IMG/VR virus record: IMGVR_UViG_3300035099_000586
Direction: 5' to 3' (one strand)
DNA from: a virus
Length of the DNA: 38,091 nt
Translations under genes and position numbers: made by a program
Notes under the pieces: model-generated
What the model saw: only the letters and a program-made list of their open reading frames with translations
Database searches by the model: none
What the model was told of the DNA's origin: nothing
Part shown: positions 113-37,979 of the stretch, piece by piece
Numbering within the stretch: position 1 is the stretch's first letter
Layout of the letters: each line of letters begins with the position of its first letter

Positions 113-125
113 TGGTAGCCCGGGA
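113..125. repeat. Third copy of the attachment core (TGGTAGCCCGGGA)
   Basis: 13/13 match to the cores at 766-778 and 37966-37978; flanked by inverted arms ACCGATTTAAAC (85-96) and GTTCAAATATCGGT (129-142). Confidence 0.85.
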
Positions 126-255
126 TAGGTTCAAATATCGGTTCAAAATATCGGGGTTAAGACGAGATTCCTTTTTTCTGGAAAATACCCATGGAAAAGC
201 CTTAAAATCAAATTTAAAAGCGAATCGCTTGTGTAGGTTCGTCAAGTCATGAAAA

Positions 256-636: not shown

Positions 637-765
637 AATTATTTCACAGCCTCAGTGTATCGCTATTTCAGTTGTTTCTTATATTCGGAATATGAAGTTA
701 AAAATATTTCGTAGATTGAAAGAAGGAACACCGATAATTTGAACCCTGTACTGGCTACGGTTTGT

Positions 766-5648: not shown

Positions 5649-5869
5649 TATTGGTCTAGCTGCACAAAGGATACATCTCCCCACAACTCATCTCTGGAAG
5701 TTATCAAGTCTCTAAAAATGGTCGTCCACCAAGGTTTTTTCATCAATATGTGGTGGCTGGCAGCTTGGCTTCTTTTGATGGTTCCTTTTGAGCATCCTTC
5801 ATAAGAGCATGCGTGATCATGCCTTTTGACCCTTACGACTTTTAATGAAGGTTTTGGAAGACCCACCAT
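5648..5869 (-). CDS. Small Cys/His-containing hypothetical protein
   Basis: 73-aa ATG ORF overlapping the end of the 855-aa gene and coupled to the next ORF. Confidence 0.35.
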   Translation of the reverse strand: MVGLPKPSLKVVRVKRHDHACSYEGCSKGTIKRSQAASHHILMKKPWWTTIFRDLITSRDELWGDVSFVQLDQ

Positions 5870-8384
5870 GTTTTGTTAGTCGTGACCTAATGTTGGTTAA
5901 AATAGGTTCTTTTTCTGATGACTCATCAGCTACGATGTAAGCCACCCCCTTCTCTTTAGGTAGGATTGGTTTGTCTGCAATTTTTCCCAAAGCGTTTTTT
6001 AAATCTTTGTTTTCAATAGATTTCGAAGAGTGCACTATTTTTATATCTGCAAGGTTTACCACGCTTGGATGAACATCGTTAGCGAGTTGTGTGTCCAGTA
6101 TGAGCCAATTGAGCCCATGTCTATACCAGCGGAGGAGACTTTCGATAACCTCTATAAATTCCTTTGGCATTTCCTTTTTGAAGTATTCATGTGCCTCATT
6201 CATGATTAAGACAACAGGTTTATTTCTTAATTCCTTGCTTGTTTGAATGACGCTCAATATCAAAGCTACGATTAAAAGCATGTCTGATTGCGGGAGTGTA
6301 AGTTCTCCCTTTTCTCTGAAGTCAAATATATTAACTCCACCTAATTTGAGTTTGGGAATAAAATGTTGGTTTCCATCAGCTAAATATGGTTTCAGGATTT
6401 CCAGAGTTCTTATTGCTGCCTCTCGTTGATCTTTTTTAAGTAGCATATCTTCTTTAACTTCTCTTATAATGGCATCTATACTAACTATTCCTGTCTCATC
6501 CCTGACTTTCTTTATCTTGTAATACACGTCTGTTACAGTTTTAGGAGCGAAGATGCCAAGCGGTCCAACTTTAAGAACATTCTTCCAGTCGTCCGTCGTA
6601 ATAGTCGACGGATCCACAATGAATGGGAAAACATTATCGGTCTTGTATTCTTCTCTAAACTCACCAAGTTTTTCACTTTTTATCGCTGGGTTTACAAATA
6701 TCTGAATATTGTTCTCTGAGACTAGACTACATGGTTTTACTCCATACTCTTTTTCCAGTTTTTGGCACTCTTCAGGATCATCGTTTTTCCTTGCTATACT
6801 CCAGAAGTCAGATCTGTCTTCGTGCCTTGTAGATTTGTGGAGCACAATTATGGTTGCCCTCTCTTTATCTGATACTTTAGATATTTTTGGAATTGACTTA
6901 CCGACCAACATTTCGCAGAGTACTCCAATGGTATACCCTTTTCCTGAGCCCGGGCCACCACAGACAAACACCGTATGAGCCCTGTTCAAGTCGAATTTAA
7001 CGAAACTGTTATCTGACTTGCCGATTATTCCCCACTGTGCCGTTTCTTTGACAGAACCTACCCATTTGTCAGGCTTTGAAGTGGTCAATGGAGCGTGAAT
7101 TCGCGAAATAGAGGCTGACTTGAAATATCTGTTTTCAGAATTGAGACTCAACAAGTATTGGCCGAAAACTGCTGAGTCGTCCAACCATCTTCCGCATATT
7201 CCGAATCCTTTTTGTATCAGAAGATTTTCGAATTCTTCACGATCAAACCTGGTTGAATAACCTAGTACTATCGTATCTAAACTCTCATTTAGAATGTTTG
7301 GCTTGTAGAGTATGATAACCGTTTTGGATTTTGGATCTGGACTCAGCCGAATTTTGCTCCTAGCTTCTTCACAAATGTTGTATCTGGTTAGAAATTCATT
7401 GAAGGTGTCGAGTTGTACAATATCAGGTATAATTTTTCCATTGTCTAACGTGTAGCCGTTAAATGCTTCATTATAAGGAATATGTTCACCGTTGACCACA
7501 AAGCGTACATTTTCTTTTGTCTGGGAGGCTTTGTTGAGTAGCTCCAGTGGGTGGTAGAAGAAGTCCTGCGCTGCTTTCCCGTAGTAGTTTCGTTTGATCT
7601 TTTCATCGTCACGGCCACCGACAAATTCCACATCCATAAGAAGCAGTGAATCTGTAGTCATCAAATCTCTAAGTGCATCCAAGATTTTGGGAACAGGCGC
7701 ATTCCAGACAATGCCTTGAGCAATAATTAGCTTACCCACTTTTTTTTCGAGACACCCTGGTAACCCTTTTAGGAAATCAGTGAGTACGGGTCTTAGAATC
7801 AGGCTTTGGTCAAATAGGCAGTTTCGCAGCATCTTATCTGCGAATACCATCCTTAGACTGTTCGTTAGTAATGGAAATGAAATATCCACAGGGGTATATA
7901 TGATTGGTCTGAATTTGTGAGCCTTGAGGTTTTGGGTTCTGTACTCTTCAATTATACGAGTTAGTATCATGTTCTCTTTTTGCGCTGATCCCACACCCAA
8001 AACGACTAATTGAATTGGAGGTTTACCGTAATGCTTGCAATGTTTTTTCTTAAGGAAATCGAATACTATTTTCATTATCTCGGACAGCGCATCTCCAAGA
8101 AGATCCCGCGTACGTTTAAAAACGTCATAACCTTCCTCCTCTGTCATCTTTATATAGTTGGCAGCTCCTATCTCGTCCCAGTACCAATATTTCTCATCTA
8201 CAACATTAGTCGTGTAAACTTCCTTTGCATGCTCCTCAGGCACCATTATGGATGTTCCTGATATGAAGCTAGCCTTTGGATAGTGCGAAAAGTTAACTTT
8301 TAACTCAAACATTTCAAATAACTGCCTATCTCGCAAAGCGAATTTCCTCACGCGCTTCAAGATTGTATCCTCCTTTTTTGGCAC
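5817..8384 (-). CDS. Fusion: EgtD-family (Methyltransf_33) SAM methyltransferase + MAD8/HerA-like P-loop ATPase
   Basis: N-half: EKYWYWDEIGA, LVVLGVGSAQKE, YTPVDIS, STRFDREEF...WLDD. C-half: FDLNRAHTVFVCGGPGSGKGYT (Walker A), LIMNEAH (Walker B), LILDTQ, RSRLTKHGGSSKT. Confidence 0.75.
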   Translation of the reverse strand: MPKKEDTILKRVRKFALRDRQLFEMFELKVNFSHYPKASFISGTSIMVPEEHAKEVYTTNVVDEKYWYWDEIGAANYIKMTEEEGYDVFKRTRDLLGDALSEIMKIVFDFLKKKHCKHYGKPPIQLVVLGVGSAQKENMILTRIIEEYRTQNLKAHKFRPIIYTPVDISFPLLTNSLRMVFADKMLRNCLFDQSLILRPVLTDFLKGLPGCLEKKVGKLIIAQGIVWNAPVPKILDALRDLMTTDSLLLMDVEFVGGRDDEKIKRNYYGKAAQDFFYHPLELLNKASQTKENVRFVVNGEHIPYNEAFNGYTLDNGKIIPDIVQLDTFNEFLTRYNICEEARSKIRLSPDPKSKTVIILYKPNILNESLDTIVLGYSTRFDREEFENLLIQKGFGICGRWLDDSAVFGQYLLSLNSENRYFKSASISRIHAPLTTSKPDKWVGSVKETAQWGIIGKSDNSFVKFDLNRAHTVFVCGGPGSGKGYTIGVLCEMLVGKSIPKISKVSDKERATIIVLHKSTRHEDRSDFWSIARKNDDPEECQKLEKEYGVKPCSLVSENNIQIFVNPAIKSEKLGEFREEYKTDNVFPFIVDPSTITTDDWKNVLKVGPLGIFAPKTVTDVYYKIKKVRDETGIVSIDAIIREVKEDMLLKKDQREAAIRTLEILKPYLADGNQHFIPKLKLGGVNIFDFREKGELTLPQSDMLLIVALILSVIQTSKELRNKPVVLIMNEAHEYFKKEMPKEFIEVIESLLRWYRHGLNWLILDTQLANDVHPSVVNLADIKIVHSSKSIENKDLKNALGKIADKPILPKEKGVAYIVADESSEKEPILTNIRSRLTKHGGSSKTFIKSRKGQKA

Positions 8385-8402: not shown

Positions 8403-8420
8403 TCATATATATTTTTAAAG
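8403..8420 (-). promoter_or_regulatory. Probable TATA box for a leaderless transcript of the 855-aa gene
   Basis: TTTAAAAATATATA about 20-35 nt upstream of the GTG start at 8384; no RBS visible. Confidence 0.45.
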
Positions 8421-9878
8421 CTTCTGCGTTTTCTTTTTCCAAAATAGGTATCCTTTGGTTTGCATTAAAAATCCGCAAACTTTTATTAAGTGTGCAAGCC
8501 TTTCAAGGCTGGCTTTTTTTATTTCTTCGATGTAGGCTTCTTTTCTTCCGAATGGCATATGACAGAAGAAGTATTTCATGAAACGTACATGGCTATGCTT
8601 GGTGAACGCTTCCCTTATGACTGCAATGCTATTATCGGCTAGGGTTTGAAGCTTATTCAAAACGTATTTTTCGTTTCCCAAAAGTTGAATGTTGAAGCCG
8701 TAATGTCGCAGTATTTCCGTAATTCTAAGCGCTTCTTTTGGCGGTGGCTGTTCGGTTATTTTTTGCATTCCTGCTTTTTCTGCAAAGGGATTGTATTTTG
8801 CCATAACCGCGGGCATCTCCACGTATGGTGTTCCAGCTAAAGGCAGAGTTTCCCCAACGAGCTTTGCGCCCAAGCTTATCGTGCGGTATTTTGGATGAAC
8901 AACAACCCGAGTGATTATGCTCAGCTTTTCGTTTAACTCTTTCATGCTCATTTTTGGAAGTACAAGCCTTCTTCCGAAGCATGTTGGTGGTGGATAGTTG
9001 TAGACTATTACTCCGCATAGTTCTTCGCCACGTTTTAGACAGAAGATTTTTCGTGGTGCAGCTATCTTGTGGCTGCGATAGTGGAAGCTTGCGAGTTTTC
9101 TCCAGTCTTGTATTGTGCCTTCTTTGATTTTCATTTCCTTTACGAGACTGCACTCTTTAGCTGGATGGTTTGGATAGTAGTTTACGGTTATTTCTTTGCC
9201 GAATCGCTTGTGAATGTGCACTGAAGGGTTCAGGTCTTCAAGCAGGTCTGTATGTGTTGTTGCTGCTAAAACCGCTTTGCATTGTTGCCTTGCCAGCTTC
9301 TGAAGGTTATAAGCCACTATCTTGGCTGTGTCCCTGTCAAGTGTTGCTGCAAACTCGTCCATTATCCAGAACTGCGCTTGGCTTTCAATCATTTTCGCAA
9401 TCTTGTAACGGTATTTCTGGCCGTCGCTCAGTTGCTCATAACTTCTTAGGAAAAGAAAAGCGTCGTTCAAGCCCACTTTGCTCAGTAGCTCTAGGCTTTC
9501 TTCAACTGTTTTACCTACCGTTTCGATTAACGGTCTGTTTGGTTCAGGCTGAATATCCGCAATATTTATGCAACTAGTTCCCATGTCTTGCCTTATGTCC
9601 TTTTCCAAGGCTTTCAACAAGACAGACTTTCCGCTTCCAGAATCACCTGCTATATAGACAATGTCTGTAGATCCTATCTTCAGTTCAACATCATCGTAAA
9701 TGACAAATCTTTGCCACTGGTCAAGCCCCAGCCCGAAGCCTTCCGCAACAGCAACAACACGCTCACTTGGTTCTGGAGCAGCAGTTTCATAGCTTATGTT
9801 AATCACAAACTTGCCTTCTCTTCTATCATATCGACGTGCATATCGGGTGATGTGGAAAAACTCGCGCTTCCTTCTCAT
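8415..9878 (-). CDS. ABC-type ATPase fused to a GNAT acetyltransferase
   Basis: GDSGSGKS, LSDGQ, IMDEF, TTH, then ITRVVVHPKYRTISLG; ATGA-coupled to the terminase. Confidence 0.85.
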   Translation of the reverse strand: MRRKREFFHITRYARRYDRREGKFVINISYETAAPEPSERVVAVAEGFGLGLDQWQRFVIYDDVELKIGSTDIVYIAGDSGSGKSVLLKALEKDIRQDMGTSCINIADIQPEPNRPLIETVGKTVEESLELLSKVGLNDAFLFLRSYEQLSDGQKYRYKIAKMIESQAQFWIMDEFAATLDRDTAKIVAYNLQKLARQQCKAVLAATTHTDLLEDLNPSVHIHKRFGKEITVNYYPNHPAKECSLVKEMKIKEGTIQDWRKLASFHYRSHKIAAPRKIFCLKRGEELCGVIVYNYPPPTCFGRRLVLPKMSMKELNEKLSIITRVVVHPKYRTISLGAKLVGETLPLAGTPYVEMPAVMAKYNPFAEKAGMQKITEQPPPKEALRITEILRHYGFNIQLLGNEKYVLNKLQTLADNSIAVIREAFTKHSHVRFMKYFFCHMPFGRKEAYIEEIKKASLERLAHLIKVCGFLMQTKGYLFWKKKTQKL

Positions 9879-11338
9879 CTCGTAACTCCCATAACCTTGC
9901 GTTTGTTCAGTTTTTTGCGAATCTGCTGGAGTTTGTTGACTCGTCTGGGCACTACAGTCAGAAGTGGCTCTGGAGCCAGCTTAACTCCGCAAGATATTGC
10001 CATTGCTGTTGCCCACCAGACATCGTCATGTTGGTTTTGCGGGTGCGAGAAATGCAGTGACCCGTCCTTTTTGAGTTCGAATTTTTCTATGTTAAGCTCG
10101 TTGACGTAGCTGAGGCTCTTGTTCGGTGAGACTTGTATGTTGACAAAGGGAAAGCTGTAAGCTGCATCTAGCATCCGTTGCTTCAAAATGCTTGCCAGCT
10201 CCTGTTTTCGGCTGCTGGTAAAGGTTACAGCTTCCACGTTTTCGATTCCGCCATTCGCCATGTCCTCGGTGATGTATTCGCCGACTCCTGTCGTGTCAAC
10301 GCGGATTTTCTCAAACGTCTGCCATCTGTCCGTTAATGTTTTGACATAGCCTATGACTGTGGCATACTTTGTTTCAAGCGGAAAAACCTTCACATGCCTC
10401 AAGAAGTATTTGCCGTCGACGTCTTCGACTACCACAAAGGCGGAATAGTCTTGATGTTTACCAAGATCCAGTCCGCCATAGAATTTGCCTCTGTGAAGGC
10501 TTTCAAAATTCCAAAGCTCCAGTTCGCTGTCGATGCACTTTGTTATTAGGCTTAGTGGTATCCAGACGCTTTCGTCTTCTGCCCATTCTGCCTCAAGCTC
10601 CCGTTTCCACCGCCATGGGTCGCCCTCATACTCTTGCTTGCGGTCTTCAAGCCACTTCCGCCTCATAGGTCCATTAGGTTCTAAGGCTTGCTCCCATGTG
10701 ACGTGGCTCTTTGCGAACCGTGCGAATTGTGGTCTGTTGAAGATTTTCCAGAATAGGCTGTCGGCGCTGCCTGGTGTGCTGCTGCAGATAAACTTGCCTC
10801 CAGTGGTTGCAAGCGTGAACAGTATGGAATCATAGAGCTCCTCGTCATGGTTAATCCAGTTGGCTTCGTCCATGTACACGCAGTTAAGCGTAAAGCCTCT
10901 GACAGTTTCTGGATTGCAGGGCAAGGCTTGGATGACTGCTTGGTTCTTCAGCCTAACGATTGTCTGCTGCAACTTATGATAGTAGCCTTTCGGAATTCTA
11001 GTAAGGAATCCGTTGATTTTGGTTATGGGAATTTTTGTTTGGCGCCAGCTAGGACCCACAATTGCGATTTGATAACCATCATGCAACAGAGCGTAGTGCA
11101 GTAGCCAAGCAGAGATCAAATGCGTTTTTCCCGATTGCCTACTCCATCTTAAAGCAACAGAATCATTCTTGCTCAGAAGTTCTGCTGCTTCTTTCTGGTA
11201 AGCTGTTAACTTTAAGCCCAGCATATGCTCTGTGAATTTGACAAAGTCTTCTGGAATCCGTTTTGCCTTAGCTTCCAGATGATCCTTGAACCGCTGTTGC
11301 AGTTCCTTTATTCTTGTCTTTTGCGATTGCCTCATCAA
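9875..11338 (-). CDS. terL: Terminase large subunit
   Basis: WSRQSGKT (Walker A), VYMDEA (Walker B), STP, GGLDLGKHQDYSA and HDDVWWA (RNase H-like nuclease). Confidence 0.93.
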   Translation of the reverse strand: MMRQSQKTRIKELQQRFKDHLEAKAKRIPEDFVKFTEHMLGLKLTAYQKEAAELLSKNDSVALRWSRQSGKTHLISAWLLHYALLHDGYQIAIVGPSWRQTKIPITKINGFLTRIPKGYYHKLQQTIVRLKNQAVIQALPCNPETVRGFTLNCVYMDEANWINHDEELYDSILFTLATTGGKFICSSTPGSADSLFWKIFNRPQFARFAKSHVTWEQALEPNGPMRRKWLEDRKQEYEGDPWRWKRELEAEWAEDESVWIPLSLITKCIDSELELWNFESLHRGKFYGGLDLGKHQDYSAFVVVEDVDGKYFLRHVKVFPLETKYATVIGYVKTLTDRWQTFEKIRVDTTGVGEYITEDMANGGIENVEAVTFTSSRKQELASILKQRMLDAAYSFPFVNIQVSPNKSLSYVNELNIEKFELKKDGSLHFSHPQNQHDDVWWATAMAISCGVKLAPEPLLTVVPRRVNKLQQIRKKLNKRKVMGVTR

Positions 11339-23666: not shown

Positions 23667-24620
23667 TTACAGACTTGTGCTTATGTTAGTCATTTTGGCA
23701 ACTGCTTTGCTTCGTAAGACTCCCATGCCGAACCTTGTGGTCGCTCTGACTCCAAACTTGCCAGTTTTCGGGTCTTCCCAGTCTTCGACAGTAACGTCTC
23801 TGCGCAGAAGCATGACTGCTGCCACTCGAGTATCAATCGCATAAGCCGTTCCGTTAGGCACAAGCGTGCTTGCTTGAACTCTCATGCCTAAAACGCTTGT
23901 AACGATTCCGCGTTCAATGTCGGTTTGTCCAGAAGGCAAGTATTGGGCGTGAATGAACTTGTCGTCGTTTAGCAGTTGATGCAGTTGCGTCTCATGCACC
24001 ACAAGCACTGAGGGGCGCCAGTTTTCACCACGCACGGCATTGTGAAGCTTGAGGAGACCAGCCCAGCTTAAGGCTGCTCCACCGCCTGCAATTGGTGCGC
24101 CACCAGCTAGGTCTGCGTCTGCGATGGCTCCGTAAAGCGCTAGTATCTTGTTTGTTTCGGTTTCGCCCAAGATTCTGCCGACTTTTTCAACCATGTTGTC
24201 CATGACGTTCCATGTTGCGTCTTCTGCGAATTCGCGTGTCCATTCTTCTGAAGCGTCTGCGAAGGTGTTGGTTTGAATGTCGATGGTGCTTATTTTCTTG
24301 CCAGATAATCTCGCTATTGAGCCTTCTGCGTAGAGGTAGGCTACAGCTTTTTCGTCGAGTGGGAATCGTTCTAGGGCTTCGGTTGTTGGTTTGACGTTGA
24401 TGATGTTTCTGCCTATCATTTCGGGATAAGCAGCTTCTATGAGCGTGTCATGCATCTTGCCTAGTGCGCCAGCCATGTCGCTGAACAAGCCTTCTTTTAT
24501 TCCAACTTCAGCATAGCGTTTGAAGAACGGGTGTGTTGTTGCTCTGCCTTTTACGTTCTCGTAGAATTCCTTGACTTCGCCGTCTTTTTGCGTGAGGCTT
24601 TCAAATAGTTTAGGCTTCAT
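23667..24620 (-). CDS. Major capsid protein (HK97 fold), 317 aa
   Basis: ATG at 24620 with GGAGAAGTGA RBS; AYLYAEG, EEWTREFAEDATWN, ILGETET, SVLGMRV...VRATTRFG. Confidence 0.9.
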   Translation of the reverse strand: MKPKLFESLTQKDGEVKEFYENVKGRATTHPFFKRYAEVGIKEGLFSDMAGALGKMHDTLIEAAYPEMIGRNIINVKPTTEALERFPLDEKAVAYLYAEGSIARLSGKKISTIDIQTNTFADASEEWTREFAEDATWNVMDNMVEKVGRILGETETNKILALYGAIADADLAGGAPIAGGGAALSWAGLLKLHNAVRGENWRPSVLVVHETQLHQLLNDDKFIHAQYLPSGQTDIERGIVTSVLGMRVQASTLVPNGTAYAIDTRVAAVMLLRRDVTVEDWEDPKTGKFGVRATTRFGMGVLRSKAVAKMTNISTSL

Positions 24621-24625
24621 GTTTG

Positions 24626-25045
24626 TCACTTCTCCACGATGATGAAGAGCAGGTCGTCTGCTGCTGTTGTGGTTTCGAGAGCCCACCCGAGTTTTCTGGT
24701 CCAAGAAATCGTTGAGGATCCGCCTTCGTTTATGTCAGCTAATGCTACGACTCTTTTGCTTGCATCTGCTCCGTAGACTGCTTTGCCACGGGTTATTGCG
24801 CCACCAGCTTTCACTTTGATTCTTCCACGAATCAGAACGGGACACATGGCTCCAGAAGCAACTGATTGCACTGCGATGCCTATGCAGTCTTGAGCAGATG
24901 TTGCGGGACTGACCTTGTCGTCTGCGCTTAGATAGACTGGGTCGCCTTTGGTTATTGCTGCTGCAGCTTCGAAACGTTCTATGACAGCGTATGGGTCGTC
25001 TGTTTCGCCTATTGCCATCCACGTTTTGCCTGAAACGTCAGCCAA
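24626..25045 (-). CDS. Capsid cement/decoration protein (DUF2190-like)
   Basis: AAITKGDPVYL...IGIA...SGAMCPVLIRG...AGGAITRGKAV; immediately upstream of the capsid gene. Confidence 0.8.
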   Translation of the reverse strand: MADVSGKTWMAIGETDDPYAVIERFEAAAAITKGDPVYLSADDKVSPATSAQDCIGIAVQSVASGAMCPVLIRGRIKVKAGGAITRGKAVYGADASKRVVALADINEGGSSTISWTRKLGWALETTTAADDLLFIIVEK

Positions 25046-26791: not shown

Positions 26792-27868
26792 GTGAGTTTG
26801 ACGGCCATTTCTCTCTTCACAGGTGCTATGGGGCTTGACCTTGGCTTCGAAAAGAAAGGCTTCGAAATACGCGCTGCTGTGGATAATCATCCAGCTGTTT
26901 TTGATACTATTCGCGCAAATCGTCCACTCATACCAATAATCAACGAAGACATAAGACACGTCTCAGCTCATGCTATTCTCAAAAAAGCCGGTCTGCGGAA
27001 AACAGAGCCAACTGTTGTTATTGGTGGACCGCCTTGTCAACCTTTCTCGACGGCAGGAAGACGGCTTTCATTATGTGACGAGAGAGGCGCACTTGTCTTC
27101 GAATTCATTAGAATAGTAAGGCAGATTAAGCCCATGTTCTTTGTCTTTGAGAATGTGCCAGGCCTACGATCAGCAACACTCAAGCATATTTCTTTTTATG
27201 AAAGGGCAGAGAAAAAACCACATGAAATACAGGAAGAATCTAGGCTAGGAAAGGCTTTCGCTCTTCTCCTCAAAAAGTTTAGGAGAACTGGATACAGACT
27301 AACGGTTGAAGTTTTGAATGCTGCCGACTATGGTGCTCCACAAAAACGTAGACGATTATTTATTATGGGGTCTCGCGATGGGCAACTATTGGACATAAGA
27401 GAACGGAAGCGTGGTTGCACTACCCTCAGAGACGCTCTCAAAGGACTAGATGATACTGACCCCGAGTTTTTACCTTTCCCCCCTTGGGGAGCATATCTTA
27501 AGTATGTCCCTCCAGGCGGTGATTGGCGGGATCTACCGCCTAAAATACAGAAGGAAGCGATGGGAAGAGCTTTCTTTTCTCAAGGTGGACGTACAGGATT
27601 TTTTAGAAGGCTTCATTGGGATAGACCGGTGCCAACTTTAGTAAGTTCTCCGATTAGGAAAGCTACGTGCCTTGCGCACCCAGATGAAATTCGACCGTTA
27701 AGCATCAAGGAATATGCTGCCATTCAGGGTTTTCCCAAATCTTGGAAATTCAGCGGGTCGACCAAGGAAAAATACCAAATGATAGGCAATGCTGTGCCTT
27801 TGCATCTCTCCACGGTTGTAAGTAAAATCATCAGGTCTGCCGCGATTGATGGGGAAGTTAGCCGATGA
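26792..27868 (+). CDS. C5-cytosine DNA methyltransferase
   Basis: Motif I SLFTGAMG, IV GGPPCQPFS, VI FENVPGL, VIII QKRRRLF, IX/X RPLSIKE...QMIGNAVP. Confidence 0.95.
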   Translation: MSLTAISLFTGAMGLDLGFEKKGFEIRAAVDNHPAVFDTIRANRPLIPIINEDIRHVSAHAILKKAGLRKTEPTVVIGGPPCQPFSTAGRRLSLCDERGALVFEFIRIVRQIKPMFFVFENVPGLRSATLKHISFYERAEKKPHEIQEESRLGKAFALLLKKFRRTGYRLTVEVLNAADYGAPQKRRRLFIMGSRDGQLLDIRERKRGCTTLRDALKGLDDTDPEFLPFPPWGAYLKYVPPGGDWRDLPPKIQKEAMGRAFFSQGGRTGFFRRLHWDRPVPTLVSSPIRKATCLAHPDEIRPLSIKEYAAIQGFPKSWKFSGSTKEKYQMIGNAVPLHLSTVVSKIIRSAAIDGEVSR

Positions 27869-28560
27869 TTAAATATGATGACCAAAAAATACTAGATGCT
27901 GTGGCAGCTACAAGAAAAGGAGATTTCCAACGCCTTTTATTGGAGTGGGCTAAGAAGCACCTCAGGGATTTTCCATGGAGAAAGGATCCAACACCTTTCG
28001 GAACCTTGGTTGCCGAAGTCTTATTGAGAAGAACCACCGCTTCTGCAGTGCTTCGGATTTATCAGTCCTTCATGAAAGAGTACAGTCATCCTCAGAAAAT
28101 CGCAGCGGCTGAAGAAACGAAGTTAGAATCAACACTTTCGACAATCGGATATCATAAACAGAGAACAAGAATACTCAAGGCTATCGCAAAATACTTGGTT
28201 GAAAGATTTGAAGGCACTGTTCCTTGTTCAAAGGAATTATTGTTGGAAATTCCCCACGTCGGCTCCTATACCGCGGGGGCGGTCTTGTCACTTGGATGTG
28301 GTGAACCTTCCGCTATGGTAGACACGAACGTGGAAAGAATCTATGGCAGAGTTTTCTTGTTACATTTACCAAAGAGACGACGAAAGCATCTCATTGAGCG
28401 TATCGCCTCTATGTATGTGCCACTTGACAAGCACCAGACATACAACTTTGCTTTATTGGACTTGTCGGCTCTTATTTGCACTTATGGAATTCCTAGATGT
28501 GTAAAATGCCCATTGAAAGGATTATGCGACTATTTCTCTCAAGGTCTACCACGCAGATAA
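27865..28560 (+). CDS. mig: MIG-type T/U:G mismatch DNA glycosylase (HhH-GPD, 4Fe-4S)
   Basis: EVLLRRTTA (MIG-type Arg pair, versus MutY LQQT), HhH IPHVGSYTA with Tyr, VDTNVER, CTYGIPRCVKCPLKGLC. Confidence 0.8.
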   Translation: MIKYDDQKILDAVAATRKGDFQRLLLEWAKKHLRDFPWRKDPTPFGTLVAEVLLRRTTASAVLRIYQSFMKEYSHPQKIAAAEETKLESTLSTIGYHKQRTRILKAIAKYLVERFEGTVPCSKELLLEIPHVGSYTAGAVLSLGCGEPSAMVDTNVERIYGRVFLLHLPKRRRKHLIERIASMYVPLDKHQTYNFALLDLSALICTYGIPRCVKCPLKGLCDYFSQGLPRR

Positions 28561-28622
28561 AGCATTAATCTAAGCAAGAATTGAGCTCGCGAGTTATCGA
28601 TAATAGAAAGAATAATTGAATT

Positions 28623-30299
28623 CTAATCAAGCCTACTTATCGCTTCTCGAGGAATTCTGACTTCTCCTCTCATTGAGAGGATAAACAGCAGTGCAGAGGT
28701 CATTTCGTCCAATAAAACTTGCTTCTGGCGTGACCTTAAGTGCAACCACCTTCTTTCAAGCGCGTATCCTCCGTTTTTCCATTCAGGAGAGAACAAATCC
28801 CAAGCGGTATATCCTAATGTTGAAAGACTTCGAGAGACATTCAGAATCTTGCTCCTTTCTCTGCTTGAAAAAGGAATCAATACGACTTTTTCTTCGACGT
28901 GCACGGTCAATTTTGCGGCTGCTTCCTTCTCTTTTTCTGAAAACTCGTGCATTTTCCTAAACATGTCGAGTGGTACTTTTGACCGGTAAAGCTCTAACAA
29001 ATGAGGATTGATGCGAAAAAAGCGCCGAATTTGTTTTGACCACACTTTCCAAGTCCAATGGCTTGCATTATGTTTTAATGCGTCAGGTAAAGACAATTCA
29101 TAAGGAAATCCGTTCTCCTCCATTGCCAGAAAAATCTCTGTGGGCCAAGATTCTTCTTTATAGTACACCCAATCCTTAGTCTTTATGACGCATCCGGTAT
29201 TCCTGCAAGCCTTATCAACTTGATTCTCGTCCAAAATTCCTTGGATGTAGCCAAGTGACAGTTTTCTATGCGAATTCATGTATGATAAAGCTTCCCACGT
29301 AGCTGGTTCAAAATCGTCTCCAAGCAAACCGAGAAAGGCAATTTCAGGGTAATCTCGTCCCAGCATCCAGACGCCAACTATCAGAATACTTCCCTTGAAA
29401 TCGTTCAGATCCATAGGGTCTTTCAGCTTAGTATCGGTTCGCTGCTTTGGATTATTCAAACTCTCTCTGAATATCTCTGTATTCAAGCGGGCTTTCAAAC
29501 ACCCACTATAATCACTCAGTGTCAAGGCGACCTGGTCAGGTGTCACGCCAAAGCCTGTTGTAGAAGGAATGCAATCCACAGAAGTAGCTCTACATATCAG
29601 AGCGAAGAAAAAACCAAGCCTTAGACCTTCTTCTGTAAAGAAAGGCGTAAAATAGCGAAGGGCTAATCCATTTCCGATAGTTTCTATGTCTTTACATGTC
29701 CTCATAAACGGCTTAAATTGATTCAGATTGATTGGATCATTGTTATGTTTTTTAACTGAACTAACTCTTCGTCCTCTTACGGCGTGGGCACGATTAAAGA
29801 AACTATATAGGTGGACGTTTTCAAGCCTCACTTTATCCAGTCGAGGAATAATTGGATCTGTAGGGATTTCCGCCTCAGTAGTACTAATTGCAATGACATT
29901 GGACCATTGAGGCAACGCAAGGACTAGATCATAGGTAGATTCTCCAAATTCCTTAGACCATCGATCACTCGCCATCATCTGCAAGACTATCGCTTCAACA
30001 GGGTCGTCCATAATAACTCTCGTATTTGCATCTCGCATTTGCGCTAGGATAGCGGTGTTGCCTTTCTCAGAGAGCGCTACAAGAATCCTTAAGGCATGAG
30101 CAACAAGTGAGTCACCCTTTCCAGCCTCAGATTTAAGTCTTCGACGCGATTCTTCTGGGTTTTCGATTAAGTCGTCTATTATGGCGGGCATGCGCTCGCG
30201 AAATTTTTCGTTTCTACATATCGCATCATAGATTTTCATATGCATATAAGGATAAATCGTCAACAGAAATCTGCTTATGGAGGAATCTTTAGAAGGCAT
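28623..30299 (-). CDS. Unknown 558-aa protein, last gene of the drmABC-like operon
   Basis: Overlaps the PLD gene stop; no recognisable catalytic motif; possible OB-like central segment. Confidence 0.75.
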   Translation of the reverse strand: MPSKDSSISRFLLTIYPYMHMKIYDAICRNEKFRERMPAIIDDLIENPEESRRRLKSEAGKGDSLVAHALRILVALSEKGNTAILAQMRDANTRVIMDDPVEAIVLQMMASDRWSKEFGESTYDLVLALPQWSNVIAISTTEAEIPTDPIIPRLDKVRLENVHLYSFFNRAHAVRGRRVSSVKKHNNDPINLNQFKPFMRTCKDIETIGNGLALRYFTPFFTEEGLRLGFFFALICRATSVDCIPSTTGFGVTPDQVALTLSDYSGCLKARLNTEIFRESLNNPKQRTDTKLKDPMDLNDFKGSILIVGVWMLGRDYPEIAFLGLLGDDFEPATWEALSYMNSHRKLSLGYIQGILDENQVDKACRNTGCVIKTKDWVYYKEESWPTEIFLAMEENGFPYELSLPDALKHNASHWTWKVWSKQIRRFFRINPHLLELYRSKVPLDMFRKMHEFSEKEKEAAAKLTVHVEEKVVLIPFSSRERSKILNVSRSLSTLGYTAWDLFSPEWKNGGYALERRWLHLRSRQKQVLLDEMTSALLFILSMRGEVRIPREAISRLD

Positions 30300-31108
30300 T
30301 TGATTCCCTCCATCTTTAGGATCTGATCGAGTAAACTCCGCATTGTTGAGACCAGCCCAGGGTCATCAGTGTATATTCCAATTTCAAGGTTATCTGCTGT
30401 ACTATCTGGTTTCACATTAGCCGAAGTAACAAGAAGAGATCTATCAGAACACCACACTTTAGCATGGGCCAATGTGGTATCCTCGCTTATGAACAAGACT
30501 TTCCCTGACTTGAATCGACTCCTAATGAGAGCCTCTAGCTTTTGAATTTTGAAATTAACTCCACCAGAATATGTTTTGGCTAGGGAGGGTTCACTTGTCA
30601 CAACAATTAACTCAGCGTTCTTAGCATAGATGTCTTTCAAGGCAACTTGCATTATTCCAACGTCAAGATACGGCGTTACAATAATTAGCTTAGTTTCTGC
30701 ATCCTCTGCAACAAGCTTTTGACCCGCTAATGTATGCTCAGTAATATCACCAAAACTCTCTCGGATCTTTTCTACCCACATAGGCGGCACGGTTATACAG
30801 ACTTTAAGTTCAGTTCCTCTATCAATTTTTGGCACGCCAGTGATGGATGTCATGACTTGTGAGTCAACCACAGTCACATATCGTTCAAAAGCAAGACCTG
30901 CGTTGGTGGTGTGCAATTTATGTTCTTCATCTTCACGTATAAAGCCAAATTCCTTTGCTAGCCTTGCGATTGATTCTACTTCAGTCCTTTTGAGATCGGC
31001 ATTGGACGCCAAGGTAGCTTTTAAGTCTTCAAGCGTGGTTTTTCCATTATTAACAGTATGTATGATATCCGCCATGATTCTAAACTTTCTAGAAAGATCG
31101 GCGACCAT
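30275..31108 (-). CDS. drmC: wHTH + single-HKD phospholipase D-family nuclease (DrmC-like)
   Basis: HAKVWCSD (HxKx4D), TSAN, NLEIG; follows the DUF1998 gene. Confidence 0.72.
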   Translation of the reverse strand: MVADLSRKFRIMADIIHTVNNGKTTLEDLKATLASNADLKRTEVESIARLAKEFGFIREDEEHKLHTTNAGLAFERYVTVVDSQVMTSITGVPKIDRGTELKVCITVPPMWVEKIRESFGDITEHTLAGQKLVAEDAETKLIIVTPYLDVGIMQVALKDIYAKNAELIVVTSEPSLAKTYSGGVNFKIQKLEALIRSRFKSGKVLFISEDTTLAHAKVWCSDRSLLVTSANVKPDSTADNLEIGIYTDDPGLVSTMRSLLDQILKMEGIKCLLKIPP

Positions 31109-31120
31109 GACTTCTCTCCT

Positions 31121-32620
31121 TTAGTCAGGCCAGAATACCCCAAGTGCCAAGAGTAATTTTCTGTTGAGTTTTCTGTTAACATTCCCGCAGTTCTTTATGA
31201 AGAGACATTGTTTACAGGCGTTCGAACACTCGCGCGTTCGGCATTCAAGCCTTTGTCGAATGTTCTTAAACATCCTGATGAGACTGTCTTTGTCATTCAT
31301 AAGTGCTGCAAATCCACCATTTCCGCCTTCGTCAGTGTCATAGACGTAGACCCTCCCTCCTTCTTCTGGTTTGAGTACGTCGTATGATCCATGAAATTTC
31401 TCAGGTTCGAACCCTGTGTACATTGGAGCTAGAACCAACAGCGCATGTTTGAGCGAATGCACGGCAACTTCTTTCAGATATTCAGCACTTTGAGTTTCAT
31501 GGCTTTCTTCTTTGAGTTTCTCTATTAAATCATGGAATTCAGGCTTCAACACTAATAAGAAGCCTTGTGTGTCAGTTAGGCGCCCAAGCACATTATTCTC
31601 TTGTCCATCAAGATAGTAACTCGACACTCCGTTGAACTTATTTCCTATTCGAAAACCATAGGTAATCTCAAGAACCCTCAGCCGTGAAAATCTTGACTTT
31701 TCCAAATCCACAACTTTGGGGTTGAACAGCACAGGTTTTATATTTGCTAGTACTTCATTCACCTCATCTATTTCTGGGTCGTTTGTCAGATTATAACTTT
31801 CGACAGCAGATACTTGCAAAGGTACGCTCATTGATTCCCTAGGAAAGTCCATTTTGAACCAATGACTTCCCGTTCTAAAGAGTCGTTCAAGCTTGATCGG
31901 AGCCACTTTGAGTCCTTTGGGGCAATGAGGGTTGTGCCTTCGCAGAGAGTCAACAGGCCTTTGGGGATCCTCCATTTTGAGAGACCCTAGTTTACGAATG
32001 AAGTCGTGAACGCATTTGCCATCAGCGCTTTGTGGATGGGTACACCTATCTCCGGTTTTGCTGTAATAACAGAATATTTGAGCCGTACCCATATTGCGGA
32101 TAATTCCCGTTCCCGGGTCGCCTAGTAGTGCATGAGACATGACTCTAGGAAGTCTTTGAGGTATCCAAACTGGGGCCTGCTGAACTTGGGCTTTCTGGCA
32201 TCTTCTACAAATAGGCAGTCTATCCTTCGGCGGGTATCTAAAATATGATAACTTGTCTAAGGTGCCACAGTTGGGGTCTGAGCAGTAAACCATATCGAGG
32301 GAATCATCGAATCGCAAATCAATCTTTTTGGGAACCGTGACTGTTACTTTTTCCAAATTCGGAACCGTTCTTCCGCTTTCTTCTTGTATTTGCTTTTGAA
32401 GTTTCTGAATGGCTTTGGATAATAATTCTTTTCCAGAAGAGTCAGAGAGTTTCTGCATTACGGATATTGTCAAAGTCATGTCTGGAGAGACTCCACGTAA
32501 GGAAGTCTGCTCAGGTCCTATAACTCGAAAAACAATTCCTTGATATGATGCGAAGGCACCAGGATAGAGGCTTCTTAATGCGTAGGAGAGAGATTTTGTT
32601 GTAACTGTCATCGAGCCCAT
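31121..32620 (-). CDS. drmB: DUF1998/MZB-domain protein (DrmB-like)
   Basis: HSLKHALL, YDTDEGGNG, C-terminal C..EC..AC..CL...C; also N-terminal CSDPNC and CRRC. Confidence 0.8.
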   Translation of the reverse strand: MGSMTVTTKSLSYALRSLYPGAFASYQGIVFRVIGPEQTSLRGVSPDMTLTISVMQKLSDSSGKELLSKAIQKLQKQIQEESGRTVPNLEKVTVTVPKKIDLRFDDSLDMVYCSDPNCGTLDKLSYFRYPPKDRLPICRRCQKAQVQQAPVWIPQRLPRVMSHALLGDPGTGIIRNMGTAQIFCYYSKTGDRCTHPQSADGKCVHDFIRKLGSLKMEDPQRPVDSLRRHNPHCPKGLKVAPIKLERLFRTGSHWFKMDFPRESMSVPLQVSAVESYNLTNDPEIDEVNEVLANIKPVLFNPKVVDLEKSRFSRLRVLEITYGFRIGNKFNGVSSYYLDGQENNVLGRLTDTQGFLLVLKPEFHDLIEKLKEESHETQSAEYLKEVAVHSLKHALLVLAPMYTGFEPEKFHGSYDVLKPEEGGRVYVYDTDEGGNGGFAALMNDKDSLIRMFKNIRQRLECRTRECSNACKQCLFIKNCGNVNRKLNRKLLLALGVFWPD

Positions 32621-35600: not shown

Positions 35601-35628
35601 CCCAGTCTTCAGGCAAAGGCATAGGCAA
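32608..35628 (-). CDS. drmA: SF2 DEAH-box helicase (DrmA-like)
   Basis: ARTAGGKT, YPTKALANDQ, TNPD, DEVH, STAT, ATQTLEVGVD, QRIGRGGR; Zn-ribbon inserts; long N-terminal extension. Confidence 0.82.
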   Translation of the reverse strand: MPMPLPEDWAKIEAQDLIDHLRSRTMAGLPHIGVLGPKTATESDEPSDIEEDEYTQPTESDEGDAQYPDWKFVPNKMSYQVTVKPVDKSPLVTYIVFFLRMREGCDGDLGPTLDDRPKEYCLTLDELLHAFKKYELIITTTLLSEQPKIQLKVDDKLSELGEKQVDVTLDANKQQISVFLEDQSDVFLFYEESKPRLMRQKYKIKYTRTITREHDRIIINAELRNESPKSPRSVIPERKRDEKSGSLETEKNAVLRLIKDDKLFDSYSPRLFTIPGLRNNPSGNRYGYLMEVTMEEDIHSSEYPYCERDAANTVNCIMDDSELKISANIYDGKLVFRDYAMFEEDVPQMSPGPRPSELCSELGLNPNLQAVFEEDLGFTNFYLFQAASIRCILGVMKKPTDLDTIVISARTAGGKTEAFLVPIAQYCIDNRDIKGVKALVFYPTKALANDQTNRYIEILYHLNRRLGDKKITLGLLHGDISRMEPEPGTEEEWDLPLSCPKCERGVLRSEGNLLKCNACGEVIDFVKVRNRQLVYSDPPDILITNPDTLIWDLMMRPQNHSIFGRPVFVCNDCGWTYVAKGKKRKCDNDQCKSSNITLIQPTIPRFIVFDEVHMFKGTFGINCSFFISRLQAILRKYSAQYHNEPTPKFIRIGSTATISNPVEFAEDFFDAPPNDVLLVPKDNQERKSFYLTGNRDETIRRYHVYIMPYAYNTDSTIGRAIYYVQMRSKKGTPPTRLVEKGEAWDQYLQTITFVNSIRSSNNLIALTRRTVANDLPDIKIDGHTTDFDRKSRAKIERAFNRDELHCIFATQTLEVGVDFRRVDVVVVNGFPFSFNDYLQRIGRGGRKRDSLVITVCQNWKPIDHYYFSNAREALRDPTAHIEPVPITRNNIEASKKHVRGALFDYVISDVDFSEYLDDFRMFKNITTKLKDIEEHCINALGKKGILTQEIIPCLSEFVEYLVNLSKNELAPNTLFKRFRDTINEKYQLTSLRSTDREVVVEVLWAR

Positions 35629-37965: not shown

Positions 37966-37979
37966 TGGTAGCCCGGGAG
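37966..37979. repeat. attR core of the provirus (TGGTAGCCCGGGAG)
   Basis: Exact repeat of 766-779, flanked by the perfect 10-bp inverted repeat GTATAAATTA (37944-37953)/TAATTTATAC (37997-38006). Confidence 0.9.

What the first reader, a model, noticed from the sequence alone, without database searches (positions are those of the whole stretch)
5817..8384. EgtD-family small-molecule methyltransferase fused to a MAD8/HerA-like ATPase: candidate new defence protein
Seen: residues ~60-420 follow the EgtD/Methyltransf_33 motifs in order, and residues ~445-850 form a P-loop ATPase. Knowledge: EgtD-family enzymes N-methylate amino acids such as histidine, not DNA. The ATPase motifs (DLN..HT, GK.YT.G...EM, R.R.T.HGG..KT) match my recollection of the C-terminal ATPase of MAD8 from the MADS defence system. 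I know no described protein joining these domains, and no other MADS or ergothioneine genes are present. It is a self-contained, AT-richer moron with its own TATA box. Inference: an oligomeric ATPase sensor coupled to a methyltransferase that modifies an amino acid, peptide or protein N-terminus, or drains SAM, during superinfection.
Basis: partly seen in the sequence, partly recalled or inferred. Interest (0 to 1): 0.8.

Follow-up and report, generated by a model that had tools for sequence, protein, structure and literature searches.

The report
Provirus-borne EgtD-like methyltransferase–HerA ATPase fusion
A tailed provirus of a Bathyarchaeia-type archaeon carries, as a rare single-gene add-on, a protein that joins an amino-acid-type (EgtD-fold) SAM methyltransferase to a HerA/MAD8-like motor ATPase; this pairing appears undescribed and is most plausibly an antiviral or inter-virus conflict device.

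Summary
The minus-strand ORF 5817-8384 is one uninterrupted protein. Its true start is probably TTG 8360, giving 847 aa.

- **N-terminal half:** it matches Methyltransf_33, and its model superposes on all of EgtD (Z 30.3; next fold Z 17).
- **C-terminal half:** it is a HerA-clade ATPase without a HAS barrel. It matches the PADLOC mad8 model almost end to end (E 1.3e-9) and HerA/DndH-C structures (Z about 26).
- **Not an artefact:** the fusion recurs in three independent assemblies, and both halves are under purifying selection.
- **Accessory cargo:** it sits directly after the conserved TerL-ABC gene pair. It is absent from 19 of 19 related viral contigs with room for it, and is AT-richer than the structural module.

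The ATPase module is always C-terminal and joins at least 25 unrelated N-terminal domains. One of these is a glycine-sarcosine N-methyltransferase-like enzyme. Several fusions lie beside CRISPR-Cas, AbiE, R-M, AIPR or TIR genes. However, a membrane-anchored (YdjM) paralogue is a syntenic housekeeping-context gene of Bathyarchaeia.

It is not MADS and not ergothioneine biosynthesis. My best reading is a single-protein conflict system in which an oligomeric ATPase gates an amino-acid N-methyltransferase, possibly a SAM sink. The function is untested. I rate it a new variant of a known kind.

The parts
5817..8360 (-). MT-HerA fusion gene with the most likely start (TTG 8360; 847 aa + stop). The longest ORF reaches GTG 8384.
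   Evidence: L090 has ATG and P0003 starts at the position aligned to L9; the GTG at 8384 is not conserved in L090
8369..8373 (-). GGAGG Shine-Dalgarno-like element, 8 nt upstream of TTG 8360; conserved in L090
   Evidence: read from the sequence
8406..8419 (-). TATA-like box TTTAAAAATATATA overlapping the stop codon of the upstream ABC gene; candidate own promoter (inference)
   Evidence: L090 has CTAAAAATATAAAT at the same place
7125..8327 (-). EgtD-fold SAM methyltransferase domain (about residues 20-420). It includes SAM motif I LGVGSAQKE (7974-8000), PVDISFPLL (7866-7892), LTDFL (7770-7784), AQGIVWN (7701-7721) and GYSTRF (7245-7262).
7020..7124 (-). Variable inter-domain linker (about residues 421-455); it carries indels between homologues
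5841..7019 (-). HerA/FtsK-superfamily ATPase domain (about residues 456-848), without a HAS barrel. Walker A GGPGSGKG is at 6936-6959, Walker B-like LIMNEAHEYF at 6180-6209 and RWYRHGLNW at 6105-6131.
6384..6596 (-). Helical-bundle insert in the ATPase core (helices at 163-233 of the modelled half)
   Evidence: DSSP on the model; compared with the 'clade-6' description in PMC10853773
5850..5891 (-). Conserved C-terminal tail motif IRSRLTKHGGSSKT. The module always ends within a few residues of it.
8415..9878 (-). Upstream neighbour: ABC-type ATPase, a conserved core gene of this virus group (context only, not part of the cargo)
   Evidence: 46 of 48 related contigs
5788..5816 (-). Downstream cargo boundary: nucleotide homology with L090 ends at 5788, about 30 nt past the stop codon

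Best explanation
This is a single-gene accessory ('moron') conflict module, captured from Bathyarchaeia-type cellular genomes by a temperate tailed virus.

Shown:
- An intact EgtD-fold SAM methyltransferase is fused in cis to the N-terminus of a HerA-clade ATPase, in the place where HerA proteins carry their HAS barrel.
- Both halves are under purifying selection.
- The gene is rare cargo placed after the conserved TerL-ABC gene pair.

Inferred:
- The ATPase assembles into a ring, as HerA, DndH-C and MAD8-type ATPases do, and so clusters six methyltransferase domains.
- A nucleotide- or DNA-dependent change in the ring, triggered by an incoming or competing virus, switches the methyltransferase on.
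- The methyl acceptor is a free alpha-amino acid or a similar small amine.
- The antiviral effect comes from heavy SAM consumption and SAH build-up (up to three methyl transfers per acceptor in EgtD), or from the methylated product. The logic parallels NAD+ depletion by Sir2-HerA.
- In the lysogen it would act as superinfection exclusion, expressed from its own promoter.

The confidence of 0.5 refers to the general reading of a defence or inter-element conflict module. I put the SAM-sink detail at about 0.25.
For: - **Domains:**
- **SAM site and alpha-amino-acid-holding residues:** from the 7SCF alignment, F47~Y77, Y56~Y86, G161~G224, N166~N228 and Y206~Y267, all conserved. In the 39-sequence family alignment G130, K136, S169, D251 and Y267 are invariant, and Y86, D203, G224 and N228 are nearly so. 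The roles of these EgtD residues are from my knowledge of the EgtD structure papers.
- **ATPase motifs conserved:** Walker A, NEAH with an invariant Glu, RH, and the R..R tail.
- **Purifying selection:** dN/dS is 0.35 for the MT half and 0.25 for the ATPase half against L090.
- **Cargo status:** ABC follows TerL in 46 of 48 related contigs. The fusion is in 0 of 19 contigs with room for it; only the window and L090 carry it. The same slot holds an AlwI R-M pair in L044. GC is 39.8% against 46.4%. It lies inside the att-bounded provirus (766-37966), which also carries a DISARM-like block.
- **Modularity:** the ATPase is always C-terminal, with at least 25 unrelated N-terminal domains.
- **Defence-type neighbours of other fusions:** AIPR x2, TIR and HD-CE; AbiEii and an R-M pair; type I CRISPR-Cas; an integrase-bearing element; Nmad3.
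- **Convergence on amine N-methyltransferases:** the P0007/9/10/19 cluster carries a glycine-sarcosine/glycine N-methyltransferase-like domain (5H02 E 5e-20, GNMT 2e-13). In the quick tree these fusions sit next to the MT33 fusions at the base of the same ATPase clade (support 81-84).
- **SAM-using relative:** P0093 carries a radical-SAM domain.
- **From knowledge:** GNMT is the classical SAM-level regulator.
Against: - There is no functional data of any kind.
- Defence-island association was not tested statistically; it rests on about 7 inspected loci.
- A paralogous subfamily (YdjM membrane domain + ATPase) is a conserved syntenic gene between metabolic genes and the RFC genes in more than 20 Bathyarchaeia genomes. 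The ATPase family is therefore not defence-specific.
- Stand-alone relatives of the methyltransferase have no ATPase nearby.
- The acceptor substrate is unknown. The C-terminal specificity residues of EgtD (M252, E282, S284) could not be aligned with the tools.
- Walker B has Asn in place of Asp (NEAH) throughout the family. The effect is unknown.
- A constitutive SAM drain would conflict with the provirus's own C5 methylase, so tight gating must be assumed.
- No SAM-depleting defence has been described that I could find.
Confidence: 0.5

Rival explanations
1. Counter-defence or host take-over factor of the virus. The methyltransferase removes SAM, or methylates a small-molecule signal or metabolite, so that host SAM-dependent immunity (R-M/BREX/DISARM-type methylation, or SAM-derived signals) is disabled during infection or induction. 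The ATPase provides oligomerisation or DNA tethering.
For: The gene is virus-borne and directly follows the late operon (TerL-ABC) on the same strand. Viral SAM-degrading enzymes are a known anti-restriction strategy (knowledge; SAM depletion by phage enzymes is mentioned in papers listed). Both modules are otherwise almost absent from viral contigs, so it is a recent acquisition that could serve either side.
Against: Relatives of the ATPase module are cellular and sit beside CRISPR-Cas, AbiE, R-M, AIPR and TIR genes. That is typical of defence genes, not anti-defence genes. The provirus itself carries a SAM-dependent C5 methylase within a DISARM-like block. The gene has a separate TATA-like element and an SD sequence, which suits expression in the lysogen.
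Confidence: 0.15
2. A nucleic-acid-directed enzyme. The HerA-type motor translocates on DNA, and the fused methyltransferase methylates DNA or RNA, or an amine or amino-acid group appended to hypermodified bases. That would mark or protect the viral genome, as in an R-M-like or hypermodification function.
For: HerA, FtsK, DndH and TdpA relatives are DNA translocases (PMC10853773). MAD8 belongs to a methylation-associated system (PMC13662399). The same genomic slot in relatives carries a DNA methylase and REase (L044) or a class-V aminotransferase (L047).
Against: The methyltransferase superposes on the complete two-domain EgtD at Z 30.3 against Z 17 or less for anything else, and no DNA or RNA methylase appears among the top 50 entries shown. 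The residues that hold the free alpha-amino-acid moiety in EgtD are conserved. There is no partner nuclease, specificity subunit or hypermodification pathway gene next to it. The sister fusions carry glycine-sarcosine N-methyltransferase-like domains, again small-molecule enzymes.
Confidence: 0.12
3. A non-conflict function. Either it is a metabolic or osmolyte-type auxiliary gene (betaine-like compatible solute synthesis), or it is a variant of the conserved cellular membrane-ATPase paralogue that serves DNA segregation or uptake and is only incidentally carried by the provirus.
For: The YdjM+ATPase paralogue lies in conserved housekeeping synteny. EgtD and GSMT enzymes make betaines (knowledge). 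NCBIfam gives a weak CedD (DNA-translocating ATPase) match, E 1.7e-7.
Against: The fusion is extremely rare: only 3 occurrences were found in searches of 5.8 billion clusters and 1.84 billion representatives. It is patchy among close viral relatives. It has no membrane domain. In the tree it sits away from the tight, short-branched YdjM clade. No ergothioneine or betaine pathway partners are nearby. Fusing a biosynthetic enzyme to a ring ATPase has no metabolic rationale.
Confidence: 0.1

Closest known systems
MAD8 of the MADS defence system (PADLOC PDLC04140; the MAD7-MAD8 ATPase-nuclease module of Pseudomonas aeruginosa, PMC13662399)
   Same: The C-terminal half aligns to profile positions 20-312 of 314, E 1.3e-9. 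It is a HerA-type P-loop ATPase.
   Different: There are no mad1-mad7 genes and no partner nuclease. Here the ATPase is fused to a methyltransferase rather than standing alone. The lineage is archaeal and viral.
HerA-effector defence complexes: Sir2-HerA (Nezha; 8WLD, 8SUB, 8J4U) and DUF4297-HerA (9C1M, 8ZIQ)
   Same: The ATPase fold is the same (Foldseek E 1e-11 to 1e-9, VIA Z 20-24). The concept of a ring ATPase that organises and activates an enzymatic effector which depletes a central metabolite is the model for my proposed mechanism.
   Different: Those are two-gene systems whose HerA retains its HAS barrel. Here the effector is fused in cis at the position of the barrel, and it is a SAM methyltransferase, not an NADase or nuclease. 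Whether this works like them is inference.
DndH C-terminal domain and 'HerA/FtsK capture systems', especially clade 6 (PMC10853773)
   Same: DndH-C (7ES4) scores Z 25.5 over its whole length. The ATPase is C-terminal behind variable N-terminal domains. It has a helical insert and a conserved C-terminal RxR..[D/H]xG..[ST]-type tail.
   Different: The N-terminal part is not a nuclease, kinase or inactive DAM array. No DndF or DndG genes are present. Clade membership was not tested by phylogeny against that paper's data set, and the tail has His where the published signature has Asp.
EgtD, L-histidine N-alpha-methyltransferase of ergothioneine biosynthesis (4PIM, 4UY6, 7SCF; TIGR03438)
   Same: The whole two-domain fold matches (Z 30.3, rmsd 2.6 A). 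The SAM motifs and the residues around the alpha-amino acid are conserved.
   Different: Identity is only 15-18%. The TIGR03438 score is 24.5 against a cut-off of 290.9. There are no egtA/B/C/E neighbours. It has an extra N-terminal segment of about 25-60 residues and is fused to an ATPase. The substrate is unknown.
Uncharacterised sibling fusions: glycine-sarcosine N-methyltransferase-like domain + the same ATPase (P0007, P0009, P0010, P0019)
   Same: The ATPase module is the same (41-45% identity) and the architecture is the same, with an amine N-methyltransferase upstream. They lie in integrase-bearing or ORFan-rich contexts.
   Different: The methyltransferase family is unrelated (GNMT/GSMT-type class I rather than Methyltransf_33). 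They have an extra N-terminal region of about 200 aa. None is characterised.

Membership tests
MADS defence system (MAD8) | Sequence match to the mad8 profile | tested here: met
   PADLOC PDLC04140, E 1.3e-9, 36 bits, profile positions 20-312 of 314. PADLOC gives no curated cut-off here.
MADS defence system (MAD8) | Eight-gene mad1-mad8 operon with the MAD7 partner, the m6A methyltransferase and the MAD3/MAD4 module (PMC13662399) | tested here: not met
   The neighbours are TerL, a conserved viral ABC ATPase and small ORFs without PADLOC hits. The only mad3/mad8 hits are generic P-loop and ABC-signature stretches of the conserved viral ABC gene.
HerA/FtsK superfamily, HerA clade | RecA-like P-loop core with the HerA/VirB4-type fold | tested here: met
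   VIA Z 26.0 (7F6D), 25.5 (4D2I), 25.5 (7ES4), 24.9 (4AG6). Profile against PDB: HerA chains at E 2e-17 to 1e-11. Pfam DUF87 24.4 bits against a cut-off of 23.2.
HerA/FtsK superfamily, HerA clade | N-terminal HAS barrel | tested here: not met
   The model aligns to HerA chains only from about residue 105-140 onward. Upstream of the P-loop strand lies the linker and then the methyltransferase.
HerA/FtsK superfamily, HerA clade | Walker A Lys, Walker B acidic pair, arginine finger | tested here: inconclusive
   Walker A GGPGSGKG and the catalytic Glu (NEAH), R755/H756 and R833/R835 are conserved. The first Walker B acidic residue is Asn in the whole family. Activity was not tested.
HerA/FtsK superfamily, HerA clade | Hexameric ring assembly | not testable with these tools
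Ring assembly is inferred from homology only.
EgtD (TIGR03438 equivalog, ergothioneine pathway) | Score above the equivalog cut-off | tested here: not met
   24.5 bits against 290.9
EgtD (TIGR03438 equivalog, ergothioneine pathway) | Genomic linkage to egtB/egtC/egtE (or eanB) | tested here: not met
   There are none in the window or next to the fused or stand-alone homologues inspected.
Methyltransf_33 (PF10017) superfamily | Pfam gathering score and the EgtD two-domain fold | tested here: met
   46 bits against 23. Z 30.3 over the whole of EgtD.
Methyltransf_33 (PF10017) superfamily | SAM-binding motifs (GxGxxxK, acidic residue after beta-2, D-F, GxxxxN) | tested here: met
   LGVGSAQKE, PVDIS, LTDF and AQGIVWN are present and conserved in 39 homologues.
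DndH / Dnd restriction module | DndF/DndG partners and the DndH N-terminal domain array | tested here: not met
   No such genes or domains were found. Only the C-terminal ATPase fold is shared.

The most novel reading that the evidence does not exclude
An ATP/DNA-gated, ring-assembled amino-acid N-methyltransferase acts as an immune effector by collapsing the cellular SAM pool (and raising SAH) when a competing virus enters. This would be the first metabolite-depletion defence aimed at SAM. It would have been invented at least twice on the same ATPase scaffold (EgtD-like and glycine-sarcosine-MT-like fusions), and here it is carried by an archaeal provirus for superinfection exclusion.
Probability: 0.22. 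Interest if true: 0.85.

Novelty: new variant of a known kind. Interest (0 to 1): 0.66.

Why it matters
HerA-type ATPases are emerging as scaffolds that arm enzymatic effectors in antiviral systems such as Sir2-HerA, DUF4297-HerA, MADS, DndH and Tdp. The effectors known so far destroy NAD+ or nucleic acids.

A small-molecule, EgtD-fold methyltransferase in the effector position would add a new biochemical output to this theme. That output could be SAM consumption or a methylated metabolite. A glycine-sarcosine-type methyltransferase occupies the same position in sister proteins, which suggests the theme is not a one-off.

The finding also documents defence-like cargo in viruses of Bathyarchaeia, an abundant uncultured archaeal class whose immunity is barely explored. 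Finally, it defines a compact single-gene candidate that can be tested heterologously.

Tried and rejected
- **Sequence search of the whole protein and of P0004 against PDB chains:** no informative hits. Only the family profiles reached EgtD and HerA.
- **tblastn against INPHARED phages:** no match.
- **Whole-genome tools:** no genome is held for this window.
- **First genome-contig scan with the broad ATPase alignment:** It was repeated with a narrower alignment, whose two peptide patterns bias the loci towards certain subfamilies.
- **ESM Atlas on the unknown N-terminal domain of P0015:** nothing usable.
- **hhalign of the 16-member unknown N-terminal cluster against the MT33 family:** no relationship (probability 2%).
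- **Cluster look-up for names:** uninformative.
- **Getting an EgtD sequence for a full residue map through the genome search:** gave none. EgtD residues M252, E282 and S284 could therefore not be mapped. The GYSTRF ~ ExSxK[FY] equivalence is from memory only.
- **Idea that the 1.2-2.2-kaa proteins carrying this ATPase are DndH:** not supported by sequence. P0083 hits only TdpA weakly.
- **Idea that P0003 lies in the conserved Bathyarchaeia synteny:** rejected. Its downstream ORFs are unrelated.
- **N-terminal 140-aa extension of some stand-alone MT33 proteins:** it looked TIR-like by eye, but no family was assigned.
- **Literature searches** for Methyltransf_33/EgtD-like proteins in defence, for HerA fused to a methyltransferase, and for SAM-depletion defence: no description of this architecture was found.
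- **Careful phylogeny:** it did not finish. Only the quick tree is reported.
Full report
**1. What is there**

The minus strand carries one uninterrupted ORF at 5817-8384, 855 aa from GTG.

The N-terminal residues 66-285 match Pfam Methyltransf_33 at E 4.7e-12 (46 bits against a cut-off of 23). The C-terminal part matches DUF87/HerA at 24.4 bits against 23.2. PADLOC's mad8 model aligns to residues 462-845 over profile positions 20-312 of 314, E 1.3e-9. NCBIfam gives only sub-threshold hits: CedD at 1.7e-7 and egtD at 24.5 bits against 290.9.

I folded the two halves separately, using alignments of homologues.

- **ATPase half (pLDDT 90, pTM 0.90).** It matches HerA-NurA, Sir2-HerA, DUF4297-HerA, TdpA, DndH-C and VirB4 (Foldseek E down to 4.6e-13). 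VIA gives Z 26.0 for 7F6D, 25.5 for 7ES4 and 25.5 for 4D2I. The alignments start after the HAS barrel of the HerA chains, at about residues 105-140. This protein therefore has no HAS barrel; the methyltransferase occupies that position.
- **Methyltransferase half (pLDDT 89).** It superposes on the complete two-domain EgtD at Z 30.3, rmsd 2.6 A over about 296 of 318-321 residues. The next fold, histamine N-methyltransferase, scores Z 17 (Foldseek E 4.7e-15).

**2. Gene model and integrity**

Three lines of evidence put the start at TTG 8360 rather than GTG 8384:
- P0003 begins at the aligned position.
- The 84%-identical copy in L090 has ATG there, while the GTG is not conserved.
- A conserved GGAGG lies 8 nt upstream, at 8373-8369.

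A TATA-like TTTAAAAATATATA at 8419-8406 overlaps the stop codon of the upstream gene. It is conserved in L090 as CTAAAAATATAAAT. Its function as a promoter is inference.

The fusion is not an assembly artefact. It recurs in the window (plus an identical 855-aa entry, P0002), in IMG/VR contig L090 and in a Logan contig (P0003, 58% identity, 98% coverage). The inter-domain linker is the only indel-rich part. dN/dS against L090 is 0.35 for the MT half and 0.25 for the ATPase half, so both halves are under purifying selection.

**3. Genomic setting**

The window is a tailed provirus. It has an integrase at 811-2163, an HK97-type capsid gene at 23667-24704, tail genes, and TerL at 9875-11338. The att core TGGTAGCCCGGGAG occurs at 766 and 37966, with a further 13-of-14 (93%) copy at 113 (also noted by earlier scan entries). 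It also carries a DISARM-like block at 26792-35628 (earlier follow-up e1-5819741).

TerL relatives define a large group of viral contigs: 145 stretches encode a relative and 80 were fetched.
- In 46 of 48 contigs with room, the ABC-type ATPase gene (8415-9878 in the window) follows TerL. It is a core gene of the group.
- The MT-HerA gene sits immediately after it.
- It is absent from all 19 relatives with at least 2.6 kb after ABC. Only L090 shares it.
- Nucleotide homology with L090 ends about 30 nt past the stop codon.
- The slot is variable in relatives. L044 has an AlwI-type REase plus an N6 methylase, L047 a class-V aminotransferase, and L077 a GHKL ATPase.
- The gene has 39.8% GC against 46.4% for the structural module.

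The description 'self-contained AT-richer moron' is therefore supported.

**4. The two modules elsewhere**

An exhaustive HMMER search of 1.84 billion representatives found 397 relatives. Only P0003 has both halves.

*The ATPase module.* It is always at the extreme C-terminus, with an overhang of -8 to +2 residues in nearly all of 119 proteins. It follows at least 25 unrelated N-terminal regions of 0 to 1860 aa. The identified N-terminal domains include:
- wHTH (P0012, P0016);
- a YdjM/DUF4184 membrane domain (P0043);
- PocR plus radical SAM (P0093);
- a glycine-sarcosine/glycine N-methyltransferase-like domain (P0007/9/10/19: 5H02 E 5e-20, GNMT 2.4e-13).

In a quick ML tree the GSMT-type and MT33-type fusions lie side by side at the base of a well-supported clade of 45 close relatives (99). 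The forks between them have only 81-84 support, and the careful search did not finish.

*Contexts of the non-membrane fusions.*

| Protein | Neighbours |
|---|---|
| P0015 | Two AIPR genes, a CAP12-type TIR, HD-CE |
| P0011 | AbiEii, N6/N4 methylase, DpnII |
| P0008 | Type I CRISPR-Cas cassette |
| P0010 | Integrase-bearing element |
| P0161 | Nmad3 |

*The housekeeping-context paralogue.* Close ATPase relatives in reference genomes are almost all from Bathyarchaeia, with some Nitrososphaeria. Most of those loci carry a YdjM-ATPase version of about 640 aa. It lies in a conserved collinear neighbourhood in more than 20 genomes: glutamate dehydrogenase, nitroreductase, oxidoreductases, CoA-transferase, [ATPase], M28 peptidase, RFC small and large subunits, and a PALP enzyme. 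In the tree this version forms a tight, short-branched, nested clade. The family thus contains a vertically inherited cellular member as well as fast-evolving, promiscuously fused members in variable regions. This is the pattern Aravind and colleagues call 'HerA/FtsK capture' (PMC10853773). Their clade 6 is described with a helical insert and a conserved C-terminal RxR...DxG tail. This protein has a helical insert (residues 163-233 of the modelled half) and the tail IRSRLTKHGGSSKT. I did not test clade membership phylogenetically.

*Stand-alone relatives of the methyltransferase.* These are 390-580 aa. They carry either a C-terminal tail of about 100 aa, which looks weakly coiled-coil, or an unassigned N-terminal domain of about 140 aa. 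The two inspected loci have Mrr-like genes a few kb away and no ATPase or ergothioneine genes.

**5. What the methyltransferase probably does**

The SAM-binding motifs are intact and conserved across 39 homologues: LGVGSAQKE, PVDIS, LTDF and AQGIVWN.

The profile alignment to M. tuberculosis EgtD (7SCF) maps F47, Y56, G161, N166 and Y206 onto Y77, Y86, G224, N228 and Y267. All of these are invariant or nearly so. From my knowledge of the EgtD structures, these residues surround the alpha-amino and alpha-carboxylate groups of histidine. This points to a free alpha-amino acid or a close analogue as acceptor, rather than DNA. The side-chain specificity residues could not be mapped.

The independent appearance of a GNMT/GSMT-type enzyme on the same ATPase reinforces a small-amine acceptor. 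Both enzyme families carry out repeated methyl transfers to abundant amino acids, and GNMT is the textbook regulator of SAM level (knowledge). This is why I rank 'gated SAM sink' as the leading specific mechanism. It remains inference, and I found no precedent in the literature.

**6. Comparison with known systems**

- **Not MADS.** Only the mad8-type ATPase is shared, with no mad1-7 genes (PMC13662399).
- **Not EgtD or ergothioneine biosynthesis.** The score is far below the equivalog cut-off and there are no pathway genes.
- **Not DndH.**
- **What it works like.** It plausibly works like Sir2-HerA or DUF4297-HerA, where a ring ATPase arms an enzyme. The differences are that the effector is fused in cis, it replaces the HAS barrel, and it belongs to a new biochemical class.

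**7. Verdict**

- Observation: confirmed.
- Interpretation: partly supported. The architecture, its rarity and its cargo status are shown. The defence role is plausible from context, but it is unproven and is tempered by the housekeeping-context paralogue.
- Novelty: a new variant of a known kind (HerA-scaffolded conflict proteins). There is a modest chance of a truly new effector principle.

Noticed in passing
window 8415-9878 (-): The ABC-type ATPase (with a weak GNAT-like signal, E 0.006) overlaps the TerL stop by 4 nt. It is a conserved core gene: it follows TerL in 46 of 48 related viral contigs, with a median gap of 22 nt. Its role next to the terminase is unexplained.
   Followed up: partly
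L090:1-13339 (IMGVR_UViG_3300043569_000003): This is the only other viral contig with the fusion. It is collinear with the window at 78-85% nt identity but lacks the window's 12266-9889 block (two small genes plus TerL). It may be a decaying provirus or a deletion variant.
   Followed up: partly
L044:13435-16217, L047:6369-7697, L077:5803-7395: The slot downstream of the ABC gene is a cargo hot spot in this virus group. It holds an N6 DNA methylase plus an AlwI-type restriction enzyme, a class-V aminotransferase, or a 530-aa GHKL (HATPase_c_3) protein, alongside many ORFans.
   Followed up: partly
L116:3576-5495 and about 20 other Bathyarchaeia loci (L093-L123): A protein of about 640 aa, with a YdjM-like membrane domain plus this HerA-type ATPase, is a syntenic, vertically inherited gene of Bathyarchaeia. 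It lies between a CoA-transferase and an M28 peptidase, near the RFC small and large subunit genes. It could be an FtsK/Ced-like membrane DNA translocase of this class.
   Followed up: partly
P0007, P0009, P0010, P0019 (L008, L124, L125): Proteins of 790-909 aa join a glycine-sarcosine/glycine N-methyltransferase-like domain (5H02 E 5e-20) to the same ATPase module. They sit in integrase-bearing or ORFan-rich contexts.
   Followed up: partly
P0093 (2202 aa, on a 264-kb NCBI contig): A giant protein has a PocR sensory domain, a radical-SAM domain at 1466-1626 and this ATPase module at the C-terminus. It is another SAM-using enzyme on the same scaffold.
   Followed up: no
about 50 proteins of 1.2-2.3 kaa (e.g. 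P0080, P0083, P0129): A large homologous cluster of very long proteins ends in this ATPase module (26-31% identity). Their N-terminal 1300-1800 aa have almost no Pfam signal, and they did not match DndH by sequence.
   Followed up: partly
L002:3065-3481, L003:6789-7139: Stand-alone relatives of the methyltransferase (P0004, P0005) are each followed by a small, tightly coupled ORF of 116-138 aa. They have Mrr-like nuclease genes 2-3 kb away. Their C-terminal tails of about 100 aa look coiled-coil.
   Followed up: no
window 113-126, 766-779, 37966-37979: The att-like core TGGTAGCCCGGGAG occurs three times (the copy at 113 matches 13 of 14). This bounds a provirus of about 37.2 kb that includes both the MT-HerA gene and the DISARM-like block.
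   Followed up: partly
window 726-735 of the protein (6180-6209): Walker B reads hhhhNEAH, with Asn instead of the usual first acidic residue. The Asn is nearly invariant and the Glu invariant in the close-relative alignment.
   Followed up: no
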